Assembly: GCA_038206475.1 (NCBI GenBank) | Contig: JBBRAU010000001.1 | Span: 3,317-67,316, forward strand | Length of the DNA: 64,000 bases | Direction of reading: 5' to 3' | DNA from: Patescibacteria group bacterium | GTDB taxonomy: Bacteria > Patescibacteriota > UBA1384 > JBBRAU01 | In this document: positions 39,826 to 60,051 of the stretch, in pieces | Layout of the letters: each line of letters opens with the position of its first letter | Numbering within the stretch: position 1 is the first letter of the stretch | Program-made: the position numbers and the translations under genes | The notes under the pieces: model-generated | The model's input: the letters and a program-made list of their open reading frames with translations, nothing else | Told to the model about the DNA's origin: nothing | The model's database searches: none

Positions 39826-39913
39826 GTCTTACTCCAATCTTACTATGATTATCTGACGCTTTGGCACTTCTGTCAATACTGACAGTTTGGCCGCTTTGAC
39901 GTATACTTTGGAC

Positions 39914-42900
39914 ATGCCAGAGTTTGTTCATCTGCACGTCCATTCGCAGTATTCGCTGCTTGATGGCATGGGTAAAATCCCTGATTTAATTGGCCGGGCC
40001 AAAGAGTTAAACATGCCGGCAATCGCTCTGACTGACCACGGGGTGATGCACGGCTCAATTGAGTTCTACAAAGCGGCCAAAAAGGCGGGCATTAAGCCGA
40101 TTGTCGGCTGTGAAATTTACATCTCTCCGCGCAAGATGACGGACAAAGAGGGCAAAGTGGACCAAAAAGCCTTCCACTTAACGCTCCTCGCCAAAAACGC
40201 CGTCGGCTACAAAAACTTAATTGCTCTCACCTCGGCCGGTCACACGCTTGGCTACTACTACAAACCGCGCGTGGACAAAGCGTTCTTGCGCCAGCATGCG
40301 GAGGGCTTAATTTGCTTAACCGGCTGCTTGGCGGCCGAGATTCCGCGGGCAATCATCGCCGGCGATGAGGCCAAAGTAGATGCCCTGGTTAAAGAGTACT
40401 TTGCCATTTTTGGCAAAGACAACGTCTACTTTGAAATTCAGGACCACCCTAACATTGAAGAGTGCCAAAAAATTGTCGAGGTGGTGCCACAGCTCGCCAA
40501 AAAGTACGGCCGGCCGGTTGTTGCCACCAACGATGTTCACTACGTGCGGGCTGAGGATGCAGAGGCACAAGATGTGCTGGTCTGTATTTCGACCGGCAAG
40601 CAATTGGCCGATACGAATCGCATGAGCTACATCGGCACTGATTACTCGCTGCGCACGGCAGAGGACATCGCCGCGGCCTTCAAGCAGGTACCAGAGTCCC
40701 TGGAGACAACGCTACACATTGCCGAGCAATGCAACTTGGAGCTGGAGCTTGGCAACACCATTTTGCCGCACTTCCCCGTGCCGGAGGGCGAAACGCAGGA
40801 CTCGTGGTTTGAAACGCAGTGCTGGCAGGGTTTGATGGCCAGGTACGGCGAGCAAGTGCCAGAAGGGCACAAAGAACGCCTCAAGTACGAGTTGGGCGTT
40901 ATTCGCCAGATGGGCTACGCCGCCTACTTTCTGATTGTCCAAGACTTTGTGCTCTGGGCCAAGAGCCGCAACATTGCCGTCGGTCCCGGTCGCGGTTCAG
41001 CCGCTGGCTCAATTGCCGCCTACTGCCTGCAAATAACCGATTTAGACCCGATGGAACACCGCCTGCTGTTTGAGCGCTTCCTGAACCCTGAGCGCGTCAG
41101 CATGCCGGATATTGATATGGATTTTGAGGACACCCGGCGAGGAGAAGTGATTGGCTATGTAACGCAAAAATACGGGCCCGACCATGTCTCGCAAATCTGC
41201 ACCTTTGGTACAATGGCAGCTAAAAACGCCGTACGCGACGTGGGACGCGTACTTGGTATTCCCTACGGCGACGTCGACACCATCGCTAAGCTCATTCCAG
41301 AAAAAATGAACTTGAAACAGGCCCGTTCGGCCACGCCAGAGCTGGAGATGTTGATTAAAACCGATCCTAGAATTAGCCAACTCTACGGCTTTGCCGAGAA
41401 GCTCGAAGGCAACGCCCGCCACACCGGCATGCATGCGGCCGGTATTGTGATCTCACGCGAACCGCTGACGGAATACTTGCCGGTCATGGCCGCAACCAAA
41501 GGTGAGGCTGAGCTGGTGACGCAGTACGCCATGGGCGAAATTGAGGACATTGGCCTCCTCAAGATGGACTTTTTGGGTCTGGCCAACCTATCGATCATCC
41601 AAAATGCAGTGCGCTTAATTGAAGAGACGCACGGCAAAAAGATTGATATCGCCAACGTGCCACTTGACGATAAAGAAACCTACAAACTGCTGTCGCGGGC
41701 TGAGACGATGGGCGTGTTTCAAATTGAGTGTTTAGCCGGTGATACCATCGTCTCCAACACAACCATCAAGAAACTGCACGAGAAGCAGCATAAAAAAACG
41801 TTGGAATCGGTGTATGTAGACGAGGGTGCGGTGCACCACAATCGGATTCTGGGCGTCGTGAAAAGCGGCAAAAAACCGGTATATACCGTGATTGCCGAAA
41901 ATGGCTGGTGTATTAAAGCAAGCGCCAAGCATAAGTTTCTGACCGACCAGGGCTGGCAAGAGCTGCAAGCCATTCGGCCGGGCGACAAGGTTCTTATGAA
42001 AAACAAGGCGAAACATGTGGTGTTTAATGAGTGTCGGAGTTGCGGCCAGCAAATCAGCGGTCAAAAGGAAGGTCAGAGCCGCTACTGCTACACTTGCTCG
42101 GCCCGTCACTACAGCAACCCCAGCAAACCGATCTCCCGGGCAAAAATTACTGCTGCCCGCTTGGCCTACTACGCGGATGGTCATGAGCCTTGGAATAAAG
42201 GCAAGGATGTCCACTCTGATGAGCGCGTTCGAGCAACCGGCCAGAAAATTAGCCGAGCCTTGACTGGCCTGACTTTAGAAATGAAATTTGGACCGGAAGA
42301 AGCGGCGAGAAAAAGGCACGAGCAGAGCATGCGGATGTCTGGCCGAGGTAACCACATGTTTGGCGTGAAGCCACCGCATCGCAAAGGCGGCTATCGGGCC
42401 GATTTGGGGCACTACGTACGCTCAAATTGGGAAGCAGACTTTGCCCGTATCCTTAATCTTCACCACATTCCCTACCTGTATGAACCCCACACCTTTCCGG
42501 TTGAACTGCCAGACGGCCAAGTTGCCAACTACACCCCCGACTTTTATGTGCCCTCCGAAGAGACCTACTACGAAATTAAAGGTTTTATGCGCGACATTGA
42601 CCAGGCGAAAATGGATGCCTTTGAAACCCAGTACCCGCATAAAAAATTGGTTTTAATTAATACCACTACCTTTGCTGAGTTTGCGATGACCTACCGCTCG
42701 CTGGTGGCTTGGGAGTGCCCAAAGATTCCTGAGCAACAGTTTGCTTTTCAGACCGTGCAAGCAATTCGCCCGGCCGGCATTGAGGAAACCTACGACATCA
42801 GTATGGAGGCACCAGGCAATAATTTTGTGGCCAACGGTTTTGTCGTCCATAATTCTGCCGGCATGCGGCGTTACTTAGCAGAGCTCAAGCCCACCAAGTT

Positions 42901-44584
42901 TACCGATATTGTGGCCATGGTGGCGCTCTACCGTCCGGGGCCGATGGAACGTATTCCAACGTACATCAACAGAAAGCACGGCCGCGAGACGGTCACGTAT
43001 TTGCACCCGGATTTGAAAGATATTTTGGAGGATACCTACGGCGTCTTAGTTTACCAAGAACAGGTGCAGGAGATGGCCCAAAAGTTTGCCGGCTTTTCAC
43101 TGGGCGAGGGCTACCTACTGGTCAAAGCGGTCGCCAAAAAAAAGAAAGAGCTGCTGGACGAGCAGCGCATTAAATTCATAGAGGGGGCCAAAAAAATTGG
43201 CAACTCCGAGCAGATGGCGGGACAGCTGTTTGACTTCATCGAGCCGTTTGCCCGCTACGGTTTTAACCGGGCCCACTCGGCCTGCTACGCCTACATTGCT
43301 TACCAAACAGCCTACCTGAAGGCGCACTATCCGGCGGAGTTTATGGCTGCCTGGCTGATTGCCGAGCAACAAAACATCGAAAAGATGACCGTAGCACTTG
43401 AGGAGTGCGAGCGGATGAAATTGCCGATGCTGCCACCGGACATTAACCGCTCCCGCGTTGATTTTGCCGTTGTCCGGGACAAAGCAGCTGAAGGCCGCGA
43501 AGAGATCTTGTTTGGCCTCTCGGCAATCAAGAATGTCGGTATCTCGCCGGCGACAGCCATTGTCGCCGAGCGTGAACAACATGGGCCGTTTGATTCACTA
43601 ACCGACTTATTGCGCCGGCTAGGCACGAAACACCTCAACAAAAAGGTACTAGAAGCTCTGGCACAAGTCGGGGCGCTTGACCGCTTCGGTGAACGCAACG
43701 TCCTAGTCCTGGGGGTTGAGGAGATGACGATCTACATGCATAACGCCGAGAAACAACTTAGCGCCAACATGGACAGCCTGTTCGGTGAGGCGATTGCCGT
43801 CGAGGAGCCAGAGCTCTATCTGCCGCCGCAGCCGCCAGCGGATATTACGGTCCAGTTAGGTTGGGAGAAGGGCTTACTCGGCATTTATCTGTCAGAACAC
43901 CCGGCGACCAGCGTTGCTAAACGGCTGGGCTCGACTATTCAGACTATCGGCCAATTCAGTCTGCGTGACCGTGACAAAATGGTTCGCTTGGCCGGCGTAG
44001 TCGGCAGCGTCAAAAAAATCATCACTAAATCTAATCAAGCCATGGCTTTTGCCAGGTTAGAGGACGCCAGCGGCAACATTGAGGCCGTCGTTTTTCCAAG
44101 CGTGCTCGAGACGACTCATGACTTTTGGCAAACCGAGCGGCTGCTGATTGTGACTGGCCGCTTAAACGACAAAGACGGCTCGCTGAAGCTATTGGTTGAG
44201 TCCGTCATTCCTTATACCGATGAGCTTGACCCGACCAATTTGCCGGAAGTGTCGCAAACGTCGGTCCGACGTCCCCGGCCGAGCGGCCAACCAGACGCAG
44301 TTATGAACCAGGCAGCCGTATCAGCGAGCTCACCCGTCGATGTGAGTCTGCCACCAAGTATCAGTGCGGTGCGACTACAAATGAACGGCAATTTGAGTCG
44401 TCCGCTTTTAGAAGAACTGCGGGGCATTTTAAGCAGCCACAGCGGCAGTGTGCCGATTGTGCTGGCTATCTTGAAGAACAATCAAGAGAAACAGTACCGA
44501 TTGCCAGCCGGCGTTAGCCCAAGTCCACTTTTGAAACGGCAGCTCAGCCGATTGCTTGGCGAGGAAGCGATTGTCCTGCAGTAG
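39914..44584 (+). CDS. dnaE: DNA polymerase III alpha subunit DnaE containing an in-frame 375-aa intein
   Basis: PHP N-terminus (MPEFVHLHVHSQYSLLDG), GVFQIE...SAGMRRYL..., fingers/OB domains. 1556-1565 aa versus ~1180 expected. Confidence 0.9.
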   Translation: MPEFVHLHVHSQYSLLDGMGKIPDLIGRAKELNMPAIALTDHGVMHGSIEFYKAAKKAGIKPIVGCEIYISPRKMTDKEGKVDQKAFHLTLLAKNAVGYKNLIALTSAGHTLGYYYKPRVDKAFLRQHAEGLICLTGCLAAEIPRAIIAGDEAKVDALVKEYFAIFGKDNVYFEIQDHPNIEECQKIVEVVPQLAKKYGRPVVATNDVHYVRAEDAEAQDVLVCISTGKQLADTNRMSYIGTDYSLRTAEDIAAAFKQVPESLETTLHIAEQCNLELELGNTILPHFPVPEGETQDSWFETQCWQGLMARYGEQVPEGHKERLKYELGVIRQMGYAAYFLIVQDFVLWAKSRNIAVGPGRGSAAGSIAAYCLQITDLDPMEHRLLFERFLNPERVSMPDIDMDFEDTRRGEVIGYVTQKYGPDHVSQICTFGTMAAKNAVRDVGRVLGIPYGDVDTIAKLIPEKMNLKQARSATPELEMLIKTDPRISQLYGFAEKLEGNARHTGMHAAGIVISREPLTEYLPVMAATKGEAELVTQYAMGEIEDIGLLKMDFLGLANLSIIQNAVRLIEETHGKKIDIANVPLDDKETYKLLSRAETMGVFQIECLAGDTIVSNTTIKKLHEKQHKKTLESVYVDEGAVHHNRILGVVKSGKKPVYTVIAENGWCIKASAKHKFLTDQGWQELQAIRPGDKVLMKNKAKHVVFNECRSCGQQISGQKEGQSRYCYTCSARHYSNPSKPISRAKITAARLAYYADGHEPWNKGKDVHSDERVRATGQKISRALTGLTLEMKFGPEEAARKRHEQSMRMSGRGNHMFGVKPPHRKGGYRADLGHYVRSNWEADFARILNLHHIPYLYEPHTFPVELPDGQVANYTPDFYVPSEETYYEIKGFMRDIDQAKMDAFETQYPHKKLVLINTTTFAEFAMTYRSLVAWECPKIPEQQFAFQTVQAIRPAGIEETYDISMEAPGNNFVANGFVVHNSAGMRRYLAELKPTKFTDIVAMVALYRPGPMERIPTYINRKHGRETVTYLHPDLKDILEDTYGVLVYQEQVQEMAQKFAGFSLGEGYLLVKAVAKKKKELLDEQRIKFIEGAKKIGNSEQMAGQLFDFIEPFARYGFNRAHSACYAYIAYQTAYLKAHYPAEFMAAWLIAEQQNIEKMTVALEECERMKLPMLPPDINRSRVDFAVVRDKAAEGREEILFGLSAIKNVGISPATAIVAEREQHGPFDSLTDLLRRLGTKHLNKKVLEALAQVGALDRFGERNVLVLGVEEMTIYMHNAEKQLSANMDSLFGEAIAVEEPELYLPPQPPADITVQLGWEKGLLGIYLSEHPATSVAKRLGSTIQTIGQFSLRDRDKMVRLAGVVGSVKKIITKSNQAMAFARLEDASGNIEAVVFPSVLETTHDFWQTERLLIVTGRLNDKDGSLKLLVESVIPYTDELDPTNLPEVSQTSVRRPRPSGQPDAVMNQAAVSASSPVDVSLPPSISAVRLQMNGNLSRPLLEELRGILSSHSGSVPIVLAILKNNQEKQYRLPAGVSPSPLLKRQLSRLLGEEAIVLQ
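41729..42853 (+). mobile_element. Intein in dnaE (HINT domain plus inserted zinc-ribbon and PD-(D/E)xK-like endonuclease)
   Basis: Block A CLAGDTIV after FQIE. Block B IKASAKHKFLT. Block F/G NNFVANGFVVHN followed by S+1. Exteins rejoin as FQIE|SAGMRRYLAELKP, matching E. coli FQLE|SRGMKDLIKRL. Confidence 0.8.
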
Positions 44585-58745: not shown

Positions 58746-58838
58746 GGAGAGGTACCCAAGTGGCTGAAGGGGCGGGTTTGCTAAACCTGTAGGGTTCCGA
58801 AAGGAGCCGCGAGAGTTCGAATCTCTCCCTCTCCGCCA
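58746..58838 (+). tRNA. tRNA-Ser (GCU)
   Basis: Manual fold. Acceptor ggagagg/ccucucc, anticodon loop uuGCUaa, long variable arm, G73-CCA. Confidence 0.9.
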
Positions 58839-58948: not shown

Positions 58949-59416
58949 GTGGTCGAACCAACCGAGCTAACCTGGGAAGCGCCGCCGTTCGTCATATACG
59001 AGCGCGGCAAGTACTGGCGCGCCGCCATGATCGGCGGTTTCGTACTGATGGGCGCCATTATTGGCTTAATGCGGCTCTATATTCCAGCCATCGTCATCGC
59101 TTTGGGCGGCTTAGCCTTAGTAGTCCAAGTGGCCGAAAAGGCGCACCCGATGCTCGTGACGTTAACGGAAACTGAAGCCCATTTTGGCCGACGCCGGCTG
59201 CCCTACCGCGAACTCAAGCGATTCTTTATTTTGAGCGTCGAAGAGCCAGTGCTTTTTTTGGAGCCGAAGCGCGTCGGTGGTCTGCCGCACTCCGTGGTTA
59301 TCAGCGAACATGATCCTCTTGAAATTGAGCACTTTCTCCGTCATTATTTGCCGGAGGCCAAGGAAAATATGGAAACTGGTTTTTTGCGCCTCAATCGCCT
59401 GATCGGTTTTTCTTAA
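58949..59416 (+). CDS. Hypothetical membrane protein (155 aa)
   Basis: Two TM helices, then a beta-rich domain. Confidence 0.45.
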   Translation: MVEPTELTWEAPPFVIYERGKYWRAAMIGGFVLMGAIIGLMRLYIPAIVIALGGLALVVQVAEKAHPMLVTLTETEAHFGRRRLPYRELKRFFILSVEEPVLFLEPKRVGGLPHSVVISEHDPLEIEHFLRHYLPEAKENMETGFLRLNRLIGFS

Positions 59417-59465: not shown

Positions 59466-59963
59466 ATGGAGAATGGCGGGAGAAATCCTAACACGCAATG
59501 CTACGTTTGCGCCAAGCCAATCTATAAGCGCCCCTGGGAATTGCAACGCTACAAGTCCGTTTATTGTTCGCTGGCCTGCTATCATTCGACGATCAGACCG
59601 ATATCAAAACGTTGCCCTATTTGCCAGCAGGATTTTAAGCCCTGGAGGCCGATTGCCAAAACCTGTTCTCGAAGTTGCGCTAACATATCTCGCCGTGGAG
59701 GCAAATATTCCAAAGAGTCCTGTGGCAATTACTCCCGCCACAATCTAGAAACACTGAAGTTGGCCTTTGACTTTCAGGAATGCATGATTGTCGGCTGCAG
59801 TTACAAGAAGACGTTCGACATTCATCGCTTGATCTCCGGCAAATCCGGCGGTAAATACGAAATTGGCAACATGTATGCCATCTGTCCCGATCATCACGCG
59901 GAAGTTTCACGTGGATCAATTGCGCTGGAGAAAATAGCTGACGATCAACTGCGAATTATGTAG
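59466..59963 (+). CDS. HNH endonuclease with N-terminal Cys-rich zinc ribbons
   Basis: HNH core CMIVGCSYKKTFDIHRLISGKSGGKYEIGNMYAICPDHHAEV. Several N-terminal CxxC pairs. Confidence 0.75.
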   Translation: MENGGRNPNTQCYVCAKPIYKRPWELQRYKSVYCSLACYHSTIRPISKRCPICQQDFKPWRPIAKTCSRSCANISRRGGKYSKESCGNYSRHNLETLKLAFDFQECMIVGCSYKKTFDIHRLISGKSGGKYEIGNMYAICPDHHAEVSRGSIALEKIADDQLRIM

Positions 59964-59966
59964 CCC

Positions 59967-60051
59967 GGAGGGTAGTGCGAGTGGCTCGCAACTGGTCTTG
60001 AAAACCAGACCGGCCGCAAGGCTGAAGGTTCGATTCCTTTACCCTCCGCCA
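59967..60051 (+). tRNA. tRNA-Ser (UGA)
   Basis: Manual fold. Acceptor ggagggu/acccucc, anticodon loop cuUGAaa, long variable arm, G73-CCA. Begins 4 nt after the HNH stop. Confidence 0.85.

What the first reader, a model, noticed from the sequence alone, without database searches (positions are those of the whole stretch)
59466..59963. Free-standing HNH endonuclease shares its zinc-ribbon module with the dnaE intein nuclease
The HNH N-terminus NTQCYVCAKPIYKRPWELQRYKSVYCSLACYHSTIRPISKR aligns to the intein segment NECRSCGQQISGQKEGQSRYCYTCSARHYSNPSKPISRA. Shared features: CxxC, RY, YCxxC, H(Y)S, PISR/K. Two different nuclease chemistries (HNH versus PD-(D/E)xK-like) are attached to one DNA-binding module within the same genome. 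This suggests domain shuffling among homing nucleases.
Basis: seen in the sequence. Interest (0 to 1): 0.55.

Follow-up and report, generated by a model that had tools for sequence, protein, structure and literature searches.

The report
tRNA-linked zinc-finger HNH endonuclease gene
The gene is a small DNA-cutting enzyme of the selfish "homing" type that sits directly in front of a serine tRNA gene; its zinc fingers are related to those of free-standing relatives of the nuclease in the dnaE intein, but the proposed match to the intein itself is mostly chance.

Summary
The ORF at 59466..59963 (+) is real: 165 aa, with two tandem CxxC...[FY]CSxxC (FCS-like) zinc fingers and an intact HNH domain.

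- BLASTP gives E = 1.2.
- Whole-protein Smith-Waterman gives z = 2.0.
- Profile-profile comparison gives probability 18-25%, out of register, z about 2.2.
- Three of the five "shared features" are either not conserved in the families or were misread.

The general idea survives at family level. Free-standing relatives of the intein's T7-endonuclease-I-like PD-(D/E)xK nuclease often carry one to five N-terminal FCS-like fingers. These are clearly homologous to the HNH fingers (hhalign 97-98%, z 8-12). The intein's own CxxC...CxxC ribbon is a different variant with only weak similarity (79%, 19 columns). No further copies occur in the window.

An unexpected result concerns placement. In 75 of 80 species genomes this HNH family ends within about ±65 nt of tRNA-Ser(UGA), with a median gap of 4 nt. 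In phage contigs it sits inside tRNA arrays.

The most likely reading is a tRNA-gene-associated homing or nicking endonuclease, a new member of known kinds. Overall interest is modest.

The parts
59466..59963 (+). Free-standing HNH endonuclease ORF, 165 aa
   Evidence: ORF listing and sequence. 15 homologues at E 5e-56 to 9e-10. AF2 model with pLDDT 89.9.
59499..59579 (+). Zinc finger 1, FCS-like: C12, C15, C34, C38 (CxxC-x18-CxxxC)
   Evidence: The four Cys are invariant in the family alignment. hhalign against FCS-like fingers of endo-I-like nucleases gives 96.9%, z = 8.4. The model shows a beta-hairpin plus a helix.
59613..59708 (+). Zinc finger 2, FCS-like: C50, C53, C67, C71 with the KTCSRSCAN motif, followed by conserved N73, R76, G78, Y81
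   Evidence: Invariant columns. hhalign against FCS-like fingers of endo-I-like nucleases gives 98.0%, E = 1.9e-13, z = 11.7. FFCS HMM domain i-E = 9.2e-8.
59775..59915 (+). HNH (His-Me finger) catalytic domain: C106, C111, H120, N135, C140, H143, H144
   Evidence: C111, N135, C140, P141 and H144 are invariant and H120 is nearly invariant. Relatives pass the Pfam HNH and HNH_3 cut-offs. Foldseek matches McrA, ScoMcrA, pyocin S2, IscB and Gme HNH domains.
59967..60051 (+). tRNA-Ser(UGA), starting 3 nt after the HNH stop codon; the conserved partner of this HNH family
   Evidence: ARAGORN and Rfam. 75 of 80 genome loci show the same pairing, median gap 4 nt.
58949..59416 (+). 155-aa ORF of unknown function directly upstream, conserved with the HNH gene in the closest syntenic relatives
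   Evidence: No Pfam hit.
58746..58838 (+). tRNA-Ser(GCU). It lies upstream of the cassette here but downstream of tRNA-Ser(UGA) in relatives L002-L004 and L225.
41729..42853 (+). Intein in dnaE (gene 39887..44584), 375 aa, C1 ... HN|S
   Evidence: Translation. Pfam Intein_splicing 58.4 bits against a cut-off of 35.8.
42032..42097 (+).
   Evidence: Conserved in 23 intein-borne homologues as C..C...C[YK]xCSA..SNPSK. Similarity to the HNH fingers is only weak.
42122..42385 (+). NUMOD3-like helical repeats between the ribbon and the nuclease (approximate limits)
   Evidence: Alignment with relatives. P0018, 51% identical, has a precomputed PF07460 hit. Not confirmed by Pfam on the window protein itself.
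42386..42739 (+). T7-endonuclease-I-like PD-(D/E)xK nuclease domain of the intein (YVRSNWEADFARIL ... TPDF ... YEIKG)
   Evidence: PHROG endonuclease/resolvase hits at 8e-12. PDB 1m0d at E = 3.6e-8. 4492 relatives at E < 1e-3. AF2 pLDDT above 90 for this domain.

Best explanation
**What the ORF is**
- The ORF encodes a free-standing HNH (His-Me finger) endonuclease.
- Its N-terminal half is two tandem FCS-like zinc fingers: a CxxC knuckle and hairpin, then [FY]CSxxC at the start of a helix.
- By inference, the fingers provide nucleic-acid binding and the C-terminal HNH domain nicks or cuts DNA.

**Where the family sits**
- The family is placed almost invariably right at the 5' end of a tRNA gene.
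- In cellular genomes this is usually tRNA-Ser(UGA). In phage contigs it is within tRNA arrays.
- The most likely reading is therefore a tRNA-gene-associated homing or nicking endonuclease. It would be co-transcribed with the tRNA and would recognise a site in or next to tRNA-Ser genes.

**Relation to the dnaE intein**
- The HNH fingers are true homologues of the FCS-like fingers found on many free-standing T7-endonuclease-I-like nucleases. That is the family from which the intein's nuclease comes.
- The intein itself carries a different CxxC...CxxC ribbon, at best a distant derivative.

**Shown versus inferred**
- Shown: the domain architecture, the homologies and the tRNA linkage.
- Inferred: DNA binding by the fingers, the target site and homing.
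For: **Architecture**
- Eight invariant finger cysteines plus invariant C111, N135, C140, P141 and H144.
- AF2 model with pLDDT 89.9 shows hairpin-plus-helix fingers and a beta-beta-alpha HNH core.
- Foldseek hits to HNH nucleases.
- Relatives pass the Pfam HNH and HNH_3 cut-offs.

**Finger homology to PD-(D/E)xK relatives**
- hhalign 97-98%, z = 8-12.
- HMM E = 5.2e-8.

**Intein ribbon is distinct**

**tRNA linkage**
- 75 of 80 genome loci have tRNA-Ser(UGA) on the same strand, starting -64 to +64 nt from the stop codon (median gap 4 nt over the 76 loci with an adjacent tRNA-Ser).
- One locus has tRNA-Ser(GGA).
- One locus has an intron-split tRNA-Ser(UGA).

**Phage tRNA arrays**
- 17 of 28 viral members directly abut a tRNA. 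12 of these are Ser isoacceptors and 4 are Pro.
- The window protein's nearest relatives are phage or tRNA-array members.

**Precedents in the literature**
- T4 SegB and T5 F-Tfl homing endonucleases lie in tRNA clusters, and SegB recognises a tRNA gene element (PMC2330249).
- HNH genes are the commonest CDS in tRNA arrays (PMC5966550 and PMC6409571).
- N-terminal zinc-ribbon HNH enzymes are site-specific nickases (PMC3592412).
Against: - No cleavage site, target or HNH-less allele was identified. The one empty-site search found only another occupied locus.
- The gene order polysaccharide-synthesis gene / 155-aa ORF / HNH / tRNA-Ser / PilB-like ATPase is conserved at 56% protein identity. The pair is also near-universal among the sampled Patescibacteria. 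Both facts fit long vertical residence or a host function as well as they fit active homing.
- The window protein itself is below the Pfam HNH cut-off: 12.3 bits against 21.4.
- The fingers match no Pfam family above its cut-off.
- A weak but non-random similarity between HNH finger 2 and the intein ribbon (z = 4.4) leaves open that all these ribbons are one diverged family.
Confidence: 0.6

Rival explanations
1. The HNH N-terminus and the dnaE intein ribbon are the same DNA-binding module, exchanged directly between two homing nucleases of this genome.
For: - Both have four Cys and an aromatic residue before Cys3.
- The hand-picked segments give global z = 4-5.
- HNH finger 2 against the deep intein-ribbon profile gives probability 79%, z = 4.4.
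- There is a chain of similarities: HNH finger to free-standing finger 1 (95-98%); finger 1 to ribbon 2 of the same proteins (92%); ribbon 2 is the positional equivalent of the intein ribbon.
Against: - Unbiased pairwise tests are not significant.
- The proposed pairing, finger 1 against the intein ribbon, is out of register at profile level, z = 2.2-2.3.
- Reciprocal HMMs fail within the window.
- The second knuckles differ: CSxxC against CxxCSA.
- PISK, RY and H(Y)S are not family-conserved.
- A profile of the HNH module retrieved 118 proteins, none with an intein or endo-I domain.
Confidence: 0.12
2. The HNH protein is not a selfish homing endonuclease. It is a resident, host-beneficial gene whose expression or function is coupled to tRNA-Ser(UGA), for example through co-transcription and processing, or through a role at that locus.
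For: - 75 of 80 species-level genomes across Patescibacteria, some Chloroflexota and an Acidobacteriota MAG keep the same pairing with a median gap of 4 nt.
- Synteny is conserved at 56% identity.
- Catalytic and zinc residues are conserved in 107 of 109 members.
- No HNH-less allele was seen.
Against: - The same family sits in phage tRNA arrays in front of different Ser isoacceptors, or in front of Pro.
- The window clade is scattered over unrelated taxa (an Anaerolineae MAG, Plectonema, a Pseudomonadota MAG, a Thermoplasmatales MAG) and over phages.
- The flanks on the other side of the gene vary.
- ORF ends often run into the tRNA gene, in 22 of 76 cases, as expected for an inserted element.
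Confidence: 0.22
3. All the zinc-module similarities, including those to the free-standing PD-(D/E)xK proteins, are convergent features of small four-Cys motifs and carry no evolutionary signal.
For: - Short Cys-rich motifs score well against many Pfam zinc-ribbon models at sub-threshold levels.
- The profiles are short, 36-45 columns.
Against: - Column shuffles that keep the Cys columns fixed never reach the observed scores for the HNH fingers against the FCS-like fingers: z = 8.4 and 11.7, 0/200.
- The match covers the whole module, including non-Cys positions such as G after CxxC, F/I, basic-[FY]-C-S, and R after the last Cys.
- The HMM built from PD-(D/E)xK proteins alone picks the HNH ORF out of 1560 six-frame pieces at E = 5e-8.
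Confidence: 0.06

Closest known systems
Zinc-ribbon HNH nicking endonucleases of phages and prophages (Group 1: N-terminal ZR, C-terminal HNH; e.g. N.phiGamma, N.BceSVIII; Xu and Gupta 2013, PMC3592412)
   Same: - Small protein, about 100-300 aa.
- One or two N-terminal Cys4 zinc sites, including CxxC and CxxxC knuckles.
- C-terminal HNH domain with its own zinc site.
- Encoded by phages.
   Different: - Those enzymes sit next to cos sites and terminase genes. This family sits at the 5' end of tRNA genes.
- Sequence homology to those enzymes was not tested here.
- This family's fingers have the [FY]CSxxC signature and are tandemly duplicated.
Free-standing homing endonucleases in phage tRNA gene clusters (T4 SegB, GIY-YIG; T5 F-TflI and F-TflII; PMC2330249) and HNH genes of tRNA array units (PMC5966550, PMC6409571)
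   Same: - A free-standing endonuclease gene lying between or next to tRNA genes.
- Likely part of the tRNA precursor transcript.
- SegB recognises a conserved tRNA gene element and drives inheritance of the region.
   Different: - SegB is a GIY-YIG enzyme.
- The present family is HNH with FCS-like fingers.
- It is tied mainly to tRNA-Ser genes.
- It is fixed in front of the chromosomal tRNA-Ser(UGA) of many Patescibacteria, not only in phages.
- Its activity is untested.
T7 endonuclease I-like PD-(D/E)xK nucleases (Pfam PF05367; PDB 1m0d), with N-terminal zinc fingers and NUMOD3-like repeats, free-standing in phage contigs
   Same: - They share the FCS-like zinc finger module with the HNH protein (hhalign 97-98%).
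- They share the nuclease domain, the NUMOD3-like repeats and ribbon 2 with the dnaE intein insert.
   Different: - Different catalytic domain from the HNH protein.
- Not found next to tRNAs: 0 of 26 loci.
- The intein version lacks the FCS-like finger.
FCS-type / treble-clef zinc fingers (Pfam zf-FCS PF06467, YacG PF03884, DUF2116 'probable treble clef')
   Same: - The CxxC ... [FY]CSxxC ligand pattern.
- A hairpin-plus-helix topology in the AF2 model.
   Different: - The window protein matches none of these Pfam families, even at E <= 10.
- Only related stand-alone double-finger proteins reach weak or borderline scores.
- Family membership is therefore not established.

Membership tests
HNH / His-Me finger endonuclease | Catalytic His ... 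Asn ... His motif on a beta-beta-alpha-metal core | tested here: met
   H120, N135 and H144 are conserved across 34 family members. AF2 shows E118-121, E136-139 and H141-148. Foldseek aligns this region to ScoMcrA (rmsd 2.3 A over 57 residues), Gme HNH (2.8 A over 56) and colicin E9 (1.5 A over 37), although the E-values are weak.
HNH / His-Me finger endonuclease | Score above the Pfam PF01844 or PF13392 gathering cut-off | tested here: inconclusive
   The window protein scores 12.3 bits against a cut-off of 21.4. The full-length homologue P0009 (E = 4.8e-18 to the window protein) scores 24.5 and 26.4 bits, above both cut-offs.
Free-standing homing endonuclease | Site-specific cleavage of the allele that lacks the gene, followed by copying of the gene into it | not testable with these tools
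   This needs biochemistry and genetic crosses.
Free-standing homing endonuclease | Presence/absence polymorphism at a fixed, conserved insertion point, with a patchy distribution that includes phages | tested here: inconclusive
   The fixed position at the tRNA 5' end is met in 76 of 80 loci. Presence in phage tRNA arrays and a scattered taxonomic distribution of the window clade are met. No empty site was found.
   BLASTP E = 1.2. Smith-Waterman z = 2.0 on the full proteins. hhalign 18-25%, out of register, z = 2.2-2.3. HMMs fail in both directions.
Shared zinc module with the intein nuclease's family (free-standing endo-I-like proteins) | Significant full-length profile match of the fingers | tested here: met
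   hhalign 96.9% and 98.0% over 36 and 33 columns. z = 8.4 and 11.7, 0/200 shuffles. HMM E = 5.2e-8.
zf-FCS / treble-clef zinc finger (Pfam) | Match to a curated model above its cut-off | tested here: not met
   No zinc-finger family hit of any significance for the window protein. Apart from one borderline YacG score just above cut-off (P0130, 27.5 vs 25.5 bits), only sub-threshold zf-FCS, YacG and DUF2116 hits for related stand-alone double-finger proteins.
Intein (HINT) in DnaE | Splicing blocks: N-terminal Cys, C-terminal HN followed by Ser/Cys/Thr, and a Pfam Intein_splicing match | tested here: met
   CLAGDT ... VVHN|S. PF14890 scores 58.4 bits against a cut-off of 35.8.
T7 endonuclease I-like PD-(D/E)xK nuclease (intein insert) | PD ... 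(D/E)xK motif and sequence homology to endonuclease I | tested here: met
   TPDF ... YEIKG. Family profile against PDB 1m0d, 1fzr and 2pfj gives E = 4e-8 to 6e-7. Relatives score 27 bits on PF05367, just under the 29.1 cut-off.

The most novel reading that the evidence does not exclude
The [two FCS-like fingers]-HNH gene is a lineage-wide, hard-wired partner of tRNA-Ser(UGA). Its stop codon lies within a few nucleotides of, or inside, the mature tRNA 5' end across Patescibacteria and some Chloroflexota and Acidobacteriota. On this reading it is either a homing endonuclease lineage that has specialised on class II (Ser) tRNA genes and become fixed by capturing transcription of an essential tRNA, or a domesticated factor acting on that locus. 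One relative (L005) even pairs it with a group I intron in the anticodon loop of the same tRNA, as in 'collaborative homing'. In parallel, the dnaE intein nuclease would have arisen by capture of a free-standing finger-NUMOD3-endonuclease-I homing gene. This would give an intein endonuclease type that I could not find described.
Probability: 0.2. Interest if true: 0.6.

Novelty: new member of a known kind. Interest (0 to 1): 0.35.

Why it matters
As stated, the finding would only illustrate something already accepted, namely that homing nucleases are built from exchangeable DNA-binding and catalytic modules. The specific example does not hold at the residue level.

Three things are worth keeping:
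- A defined FCS-like zinc finger module is shared by HNH and T7-endonuclease-I-like nucleases in the phage gene pool. No Pfam model captures it.
- There is a very tight and widespread pairing of this HNH family with the 5' end of tRNA-Ser genes. This gives a concrete, testable guess at the enzyme's target. It may also explain how such a gene persists in the reduced genomes of Patescibacteria.
- The dnaE intein carries a PD-(D/E)xK (endonuclease I-like) nuclease rather than the usual LAGLIDADG or HNH type.

Tried and rejected
- **Pairwise tests.** BLASTP and Smith-Waterman shuffle tests were not significant for the whole proteins.
- **More copies in the window.** Six-frame HMM scans with seven profiles found none. 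One hit of the finger-2 HMM at 40645-40914 on the minus strand (E = 0.0023) lies antisense inside dnaE and was set aside as spurious.
- **First shuffle run.** It timed out. One shuffle set contained an artefactual outlier of 131.8 and was repeated cleanly.
- **Pfam and PHROG naming of the fingers.** No family scored above cut-off.
- **Profile search with the HNH finger module.** It returned 118 hits, almost all HNH proteins or stand-alone double fingers, and none with an endo-I or intein domain. By this route the link to PD-(D/E)xK proteins is visible only in the reverse direction.
- **AF2 of the whole intein, to compare ribbon folds.** The ribbon region has pLDDT 41-65 and is unusable. Only the nuclease core is confident.
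- **More tRNA introns next to family members.** Rfam on 10 loci found none beyond L005.
- **Empty sites.** An exact search with the tRNA 5' half in metagenome contigs found a single locus, which is occupied.
- **Naming the organism.** A look-up of the PilB-like protein failed. L005 is not syntenic beyond the HNH-tRNA pair.
- **Literature.** Searches for PD-(D/E)xK or endonuclease I-type intein nucleases and for an HNH-tRNA-Ser pair in Patescibacteria found nothing specific.
Full report
**1. The observation**

The ORF at 59466..59963 (+) exists as described. It starts with ATG, ends with TAG and encodes 165 aa. The dnaE gene is 39887..44584 (+). It carries a 375-aa intein, CLAGDT...VVHN|S, at DnaE residues 615-989, nt 41729-42853. 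Pfam Intein_splicing scores 58.4 bits against a cut-off of 35.8. Both quoted peptide segments are present.

**2. Is the similarity more than chance?**

Taken pairwise, it is not.
- BLASTP of the two proteins gives a best E-value of 1.2 for this single comparison.
- Smith-Waterman on the whole proteins against 2000 shuffles gives z = 2.0, p = 0.045.
- Only the two hand-picked 40-residue segments look better: local z = 3.5 and global z = 4-5, or z = 2.7-4.2 with cysteines held fixed. That is the expected inflation from choosing the segments after looking at them.

**3. Family context**

The HNH protein has 15 homologues at E = 5e-56 to 9e-10. Their alignment shows two tandem modules.
- Finger 1 uses C12, C15, C34 and C38, spaced CxxC-x18-CxxxC.
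- Finger 2 uses C50, C53, C67 and C71, with the motif KTCSRSCAN followed by N73, R76, G78 and Y81.
- The HNH core follows, with C111, N135, C140, P141 and H144 invariant and H120 nearly so.

The residues RY, H40-S41 and PISK are not conserved in the family.

The intein insert has relatives of two kinds.
- Intein-borne copies. I recovered 23 ribbon sequences (22 relatives plus the window's own), mostly in proteins of 800-2000 aa. They share CxxC-x9-16-C[YK]xCSA...SNPS[KR].
- Free-standing proteins of about 200-350 aa. There are 4492 hits at E < 1e-3 in the representative library.

The intein's 'P[IE]S[RK]' begins the first of several NUMOD3-like repeats. P0018 has a precomputed PF07460 hit. The nuclease itself is homologous to T7 endonuclease I: PDB 1m0d at E = 3.6e-8 with the motif TPDF...YEIKG, and PHROG endonuclease/resolvase families at 8e-12.

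**4. Profile-level tests** (hhalign with shuffles that keep the Cys columns fixed)

| Comparison | Probability | Aligned columns | z | Shuffles reaching score |
|---|---|---|---|---|
| HNH finger 2 vs intein ribbon | 79% | 19, ending at the third Cys | 4.4 | 0 of 200 |

The second result is weak and partial. HMMs of the HNH fingers reach dnaE only at E > 1. The intein-ribbon HMMs do not reach the HNH ORF: the four-sequence profile gave no hit at E <= 10 and the deep 23-sequence profile none at E <= 1. No further copy of either module occurs in the 64-kb window.

**5.

Free-standing relatives of the intein nuclease have an extra N-terminal finger of exactly the HNH type, for example CEVCDTEF...RTCSKKCSY.
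- Among 137 such proteins, 44 carry one to five of these fingers.
- In viral contigs, 16 of 26 distinct ORFs carry one.
- A profile of 62 such fingers matches HNH finger 1 at 96.9% (E = 1.7e-10, 36 columns, z = 8.4).
- The same profile matches HNH finger 2 at 98.0% (E = 1.9e-13, 33 columns, z = 11.7). No shuffle out of 200 reaches either score.
- An HMM built only from those PD-(D/E)xK proteins finds the HNH ORF as the only significant hit among 1560 six-frame pieces of the window, E = 5.2e-8. It does not hit the intein.

The intein ribbon corresponds in position to the second, CxxC...CxxC ribbon of the free-standing proteins. That second ribbon in turn resembles their first finger (92%, z = 5.2). 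A chain of similarity therefore exists, but the direct link is not demonstrable.

The AF2 model of the HNH protein (pLDDT 89.9) shows each finger as a hairpin plus a helix, which is treble-clef-like, and shows a beta-beta-alpha HNH core. Foldseek finds McrA, ScoMcrA, pyocin S2, IscB and Gme HNH domains. The intein model is too poor in the ribbon region (pLDDT 41-65) to compare folds. Pfam has no model that captures the fingers. Related stand-alone double-finger proteins give mostly sub-threshold YacG, zf-FCS and DUF2116 hits, with one borderline YacG score just above its cut-off.

**6. What the gene is in its setting**

The stop codon is 3 nt from tRNA-Ser(UGA) at 59967-60051. This placement is a family property.
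- In 80 species-level genomes, 75 have tRNA-Ser(UGA) on the same strand starting -64 to +64 nt from the stop.
- One more locus has tRNA-Ser(GGA) directly adjacent.
- Over these 76 loci with an adjacent tRNA-Ser the median gap is 4 nt, and the ORF and tRNA overlap in 22 of them.
- In one locus (L005) the tRNA-Ser(UGA) is split by an insert that matches the group I intron model (RF00028) over its full length, at E = 3e-7 and 35 bits, which is below the family's gathering score of 50.
- In two loci the contig ends too soon to tell.
- One locus (Plectonema) has the gene at the end of a six-tRNA array.

These genomes are mostly Patescibacteria, with some Chloroflexota and an Acidobacteriota MAG.

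In viral contigs, including genomes of 180-411 kb, the family sits inside tRNA arrays. Members lie directly before tRNA-Ser isoacceptors, and members of a divergent group (26-29% identical, matching from residue 49 onward) lie before tRNA-Pro.

The window protein's nearest relatives are phage and tRNA-array members: 57-42% identity in viral contigs, then 59% in an Anaerolineae MAG, 50% in Plectonema, and 46% and 44% in two other MAGs. It clusters with them in a rough neighbour-joining tree.

The closest metagenomic relative (P0001, 56% identical) has the same gene order as the window. That argues for long residence in this lineage.

Published precedents:
- T4 SegB and T5 F-TflI/II are homing endonucleases inside tRNA clusters. 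SegB recognises the T-psi-C element of tRNA genes and is transcribed within the tRNA precursor (PMC2330249).
- HNH genes are the commonest coding sequences in tRNA array units (PMC5966550 and PMC6409571).
- N-terminal zinc-ribbon HNH proteins are site- and strand-specific nickases (PMC3592412).

**7. Mechanism**

Shown: the architecture, the homologies and the tRNA linkage.

Inferred:
- The two fingers bind DNA and the HNH domain nicks or cuts.
- The recognition site lies in or beside tRNA-Ser genes.
- The gene is expressed on the tRNA precursor, because no room for a promoter exists between the stop codon and the tRNA.
- The gene spreads or persists by homing.

The main rival is a domesticated host gene coupled to tRNA-Ser(UGA). 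I could not separate the two readings, because no empty site was found.

**8. Verdict**

The sequences are there, but the alignment is mostly chance.
Module sharing between HNH and PD-(D/E)xK nucleases is real, but it involves the free-standing relatives and not the intein's own ribbon.
- The object is a new member of known kinds: zinc-ribbon HNH endonucleases, and homing endonuclease genes associated with tRNA clusters.
- Interest is modest. The tRNA-Ser pairing and the endonuclease-I-type intein nuclease are the points most worth following up.

Noticed in passing
window 59961-60051; loci L005-L084: The HNH family is almost always placed directly at the 5' end of tRNA-Ser(UGA). This holds in 75 of 80 species genomes, with a median stop-to-tRNA gap of 4 nt and an overlap in 22 of 76 cases. 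The genomes span Patescibacteria, some Chloroflexota and an Acidobacteriota MAG.
   Followed up: yes
L085-L144 (viral contigs), e.g. L086:3001-3425, L088, L092: In phage contigs, including 180-411 kb genomes, family members lie inside dense tRNA arrays. They sit directly before tRNA-Ser(tga, gct, gga or cga). Members of a divergent group (26-29% identical, matching from residue 49 onward) in L114, L115 and L122 sit directly before tRNA-Pro(tgg).
   Followed up: partly
L005:785-1112 (Anaerolineae MAG JBBPZQ010000099.1): The tRNA-Ser(UGA) just downstream of the closest genomic HNH relative (59% identical) is interrupted in the anticodon loop. The interrupting sequence matches the Rfam group I intron model at L005:821-1027 (RF00028, 35 bits, E = 3e-7, full model length, below the gathering score). 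The arrangement resembles 'collaborative homing' of a free-standing endonuclease and an intron. No other case was found in 10 further loci.
   Followed up: partly
window 41729-42853 (dnaE intein), nuclease core 42386-42739: The dnaE intein carries a T7-endonuclease-I-like PD-(D/E)xK nuclease, preceded by a four-Cys ribbon and NUMOD3-like repeats, instead of a LAGLIDADG or HNH domain. About 22 intein-borne relatives exist in long proteins, one of them in a viral contig (L145, a 1796-aa reading frame). I found no description of this intein nuclease type in the searched literature.
   Followed up: partly
window 58746-58838 versus L002:5505-5732 and L225:1093-1320: The order of the two tRNA-Ser genes relative to the cassette differs. 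In the window it is Ser(GCU) / 155-aa ORF / HNH / Ser(UGA). In the 56%-identical syntenic relatives it is 155-aa ORF / HNH / Ser(UGA) / Ser(GCU). This indicates a local rearrangement around the endonuclease gene.
   Followed up: no
window 58949-59416: A 155-aa ORF with a hydrophobic N-terminal stretch (by eye) and no Pfam match is the conserved upstream neighbour of the HNH gene in the window lineage (L001-L004, L225). It is absent from more distant family loci.
   Followed up: no
window 59466-59963: The public NCBI annotation of this genome (a contig of 208,161 bp) appears to hold only a 59-aa product in the same 90% cluster as this 165-aa protein. The gene therefore seems to be under-called there.
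   Followed up: no
proteins P0118, P0130-P0132, P0138, P0145, P0146: There is a separate family of stand-alone proteins of about 115 aa made of two of these fingers, with the pattern CPECG...KFCSxxCRxAWKNKHP...CPVCG...KYCSRSCANRGRA. They give weak Pfam hits to YacG, zf-FCS and Zn_ribbon_HMPTM and have no nuclease domain.
   Followed up: no
window 59966-60048: Rfam scores this tRNA-Ser(UGA) best with the tRNA-Sec model (RF01852, 53.3 bits, above its gathering score of 47), although the anticodon is TGA and not TCA. This could cause automatic mis-annotation.
   Followed up: no
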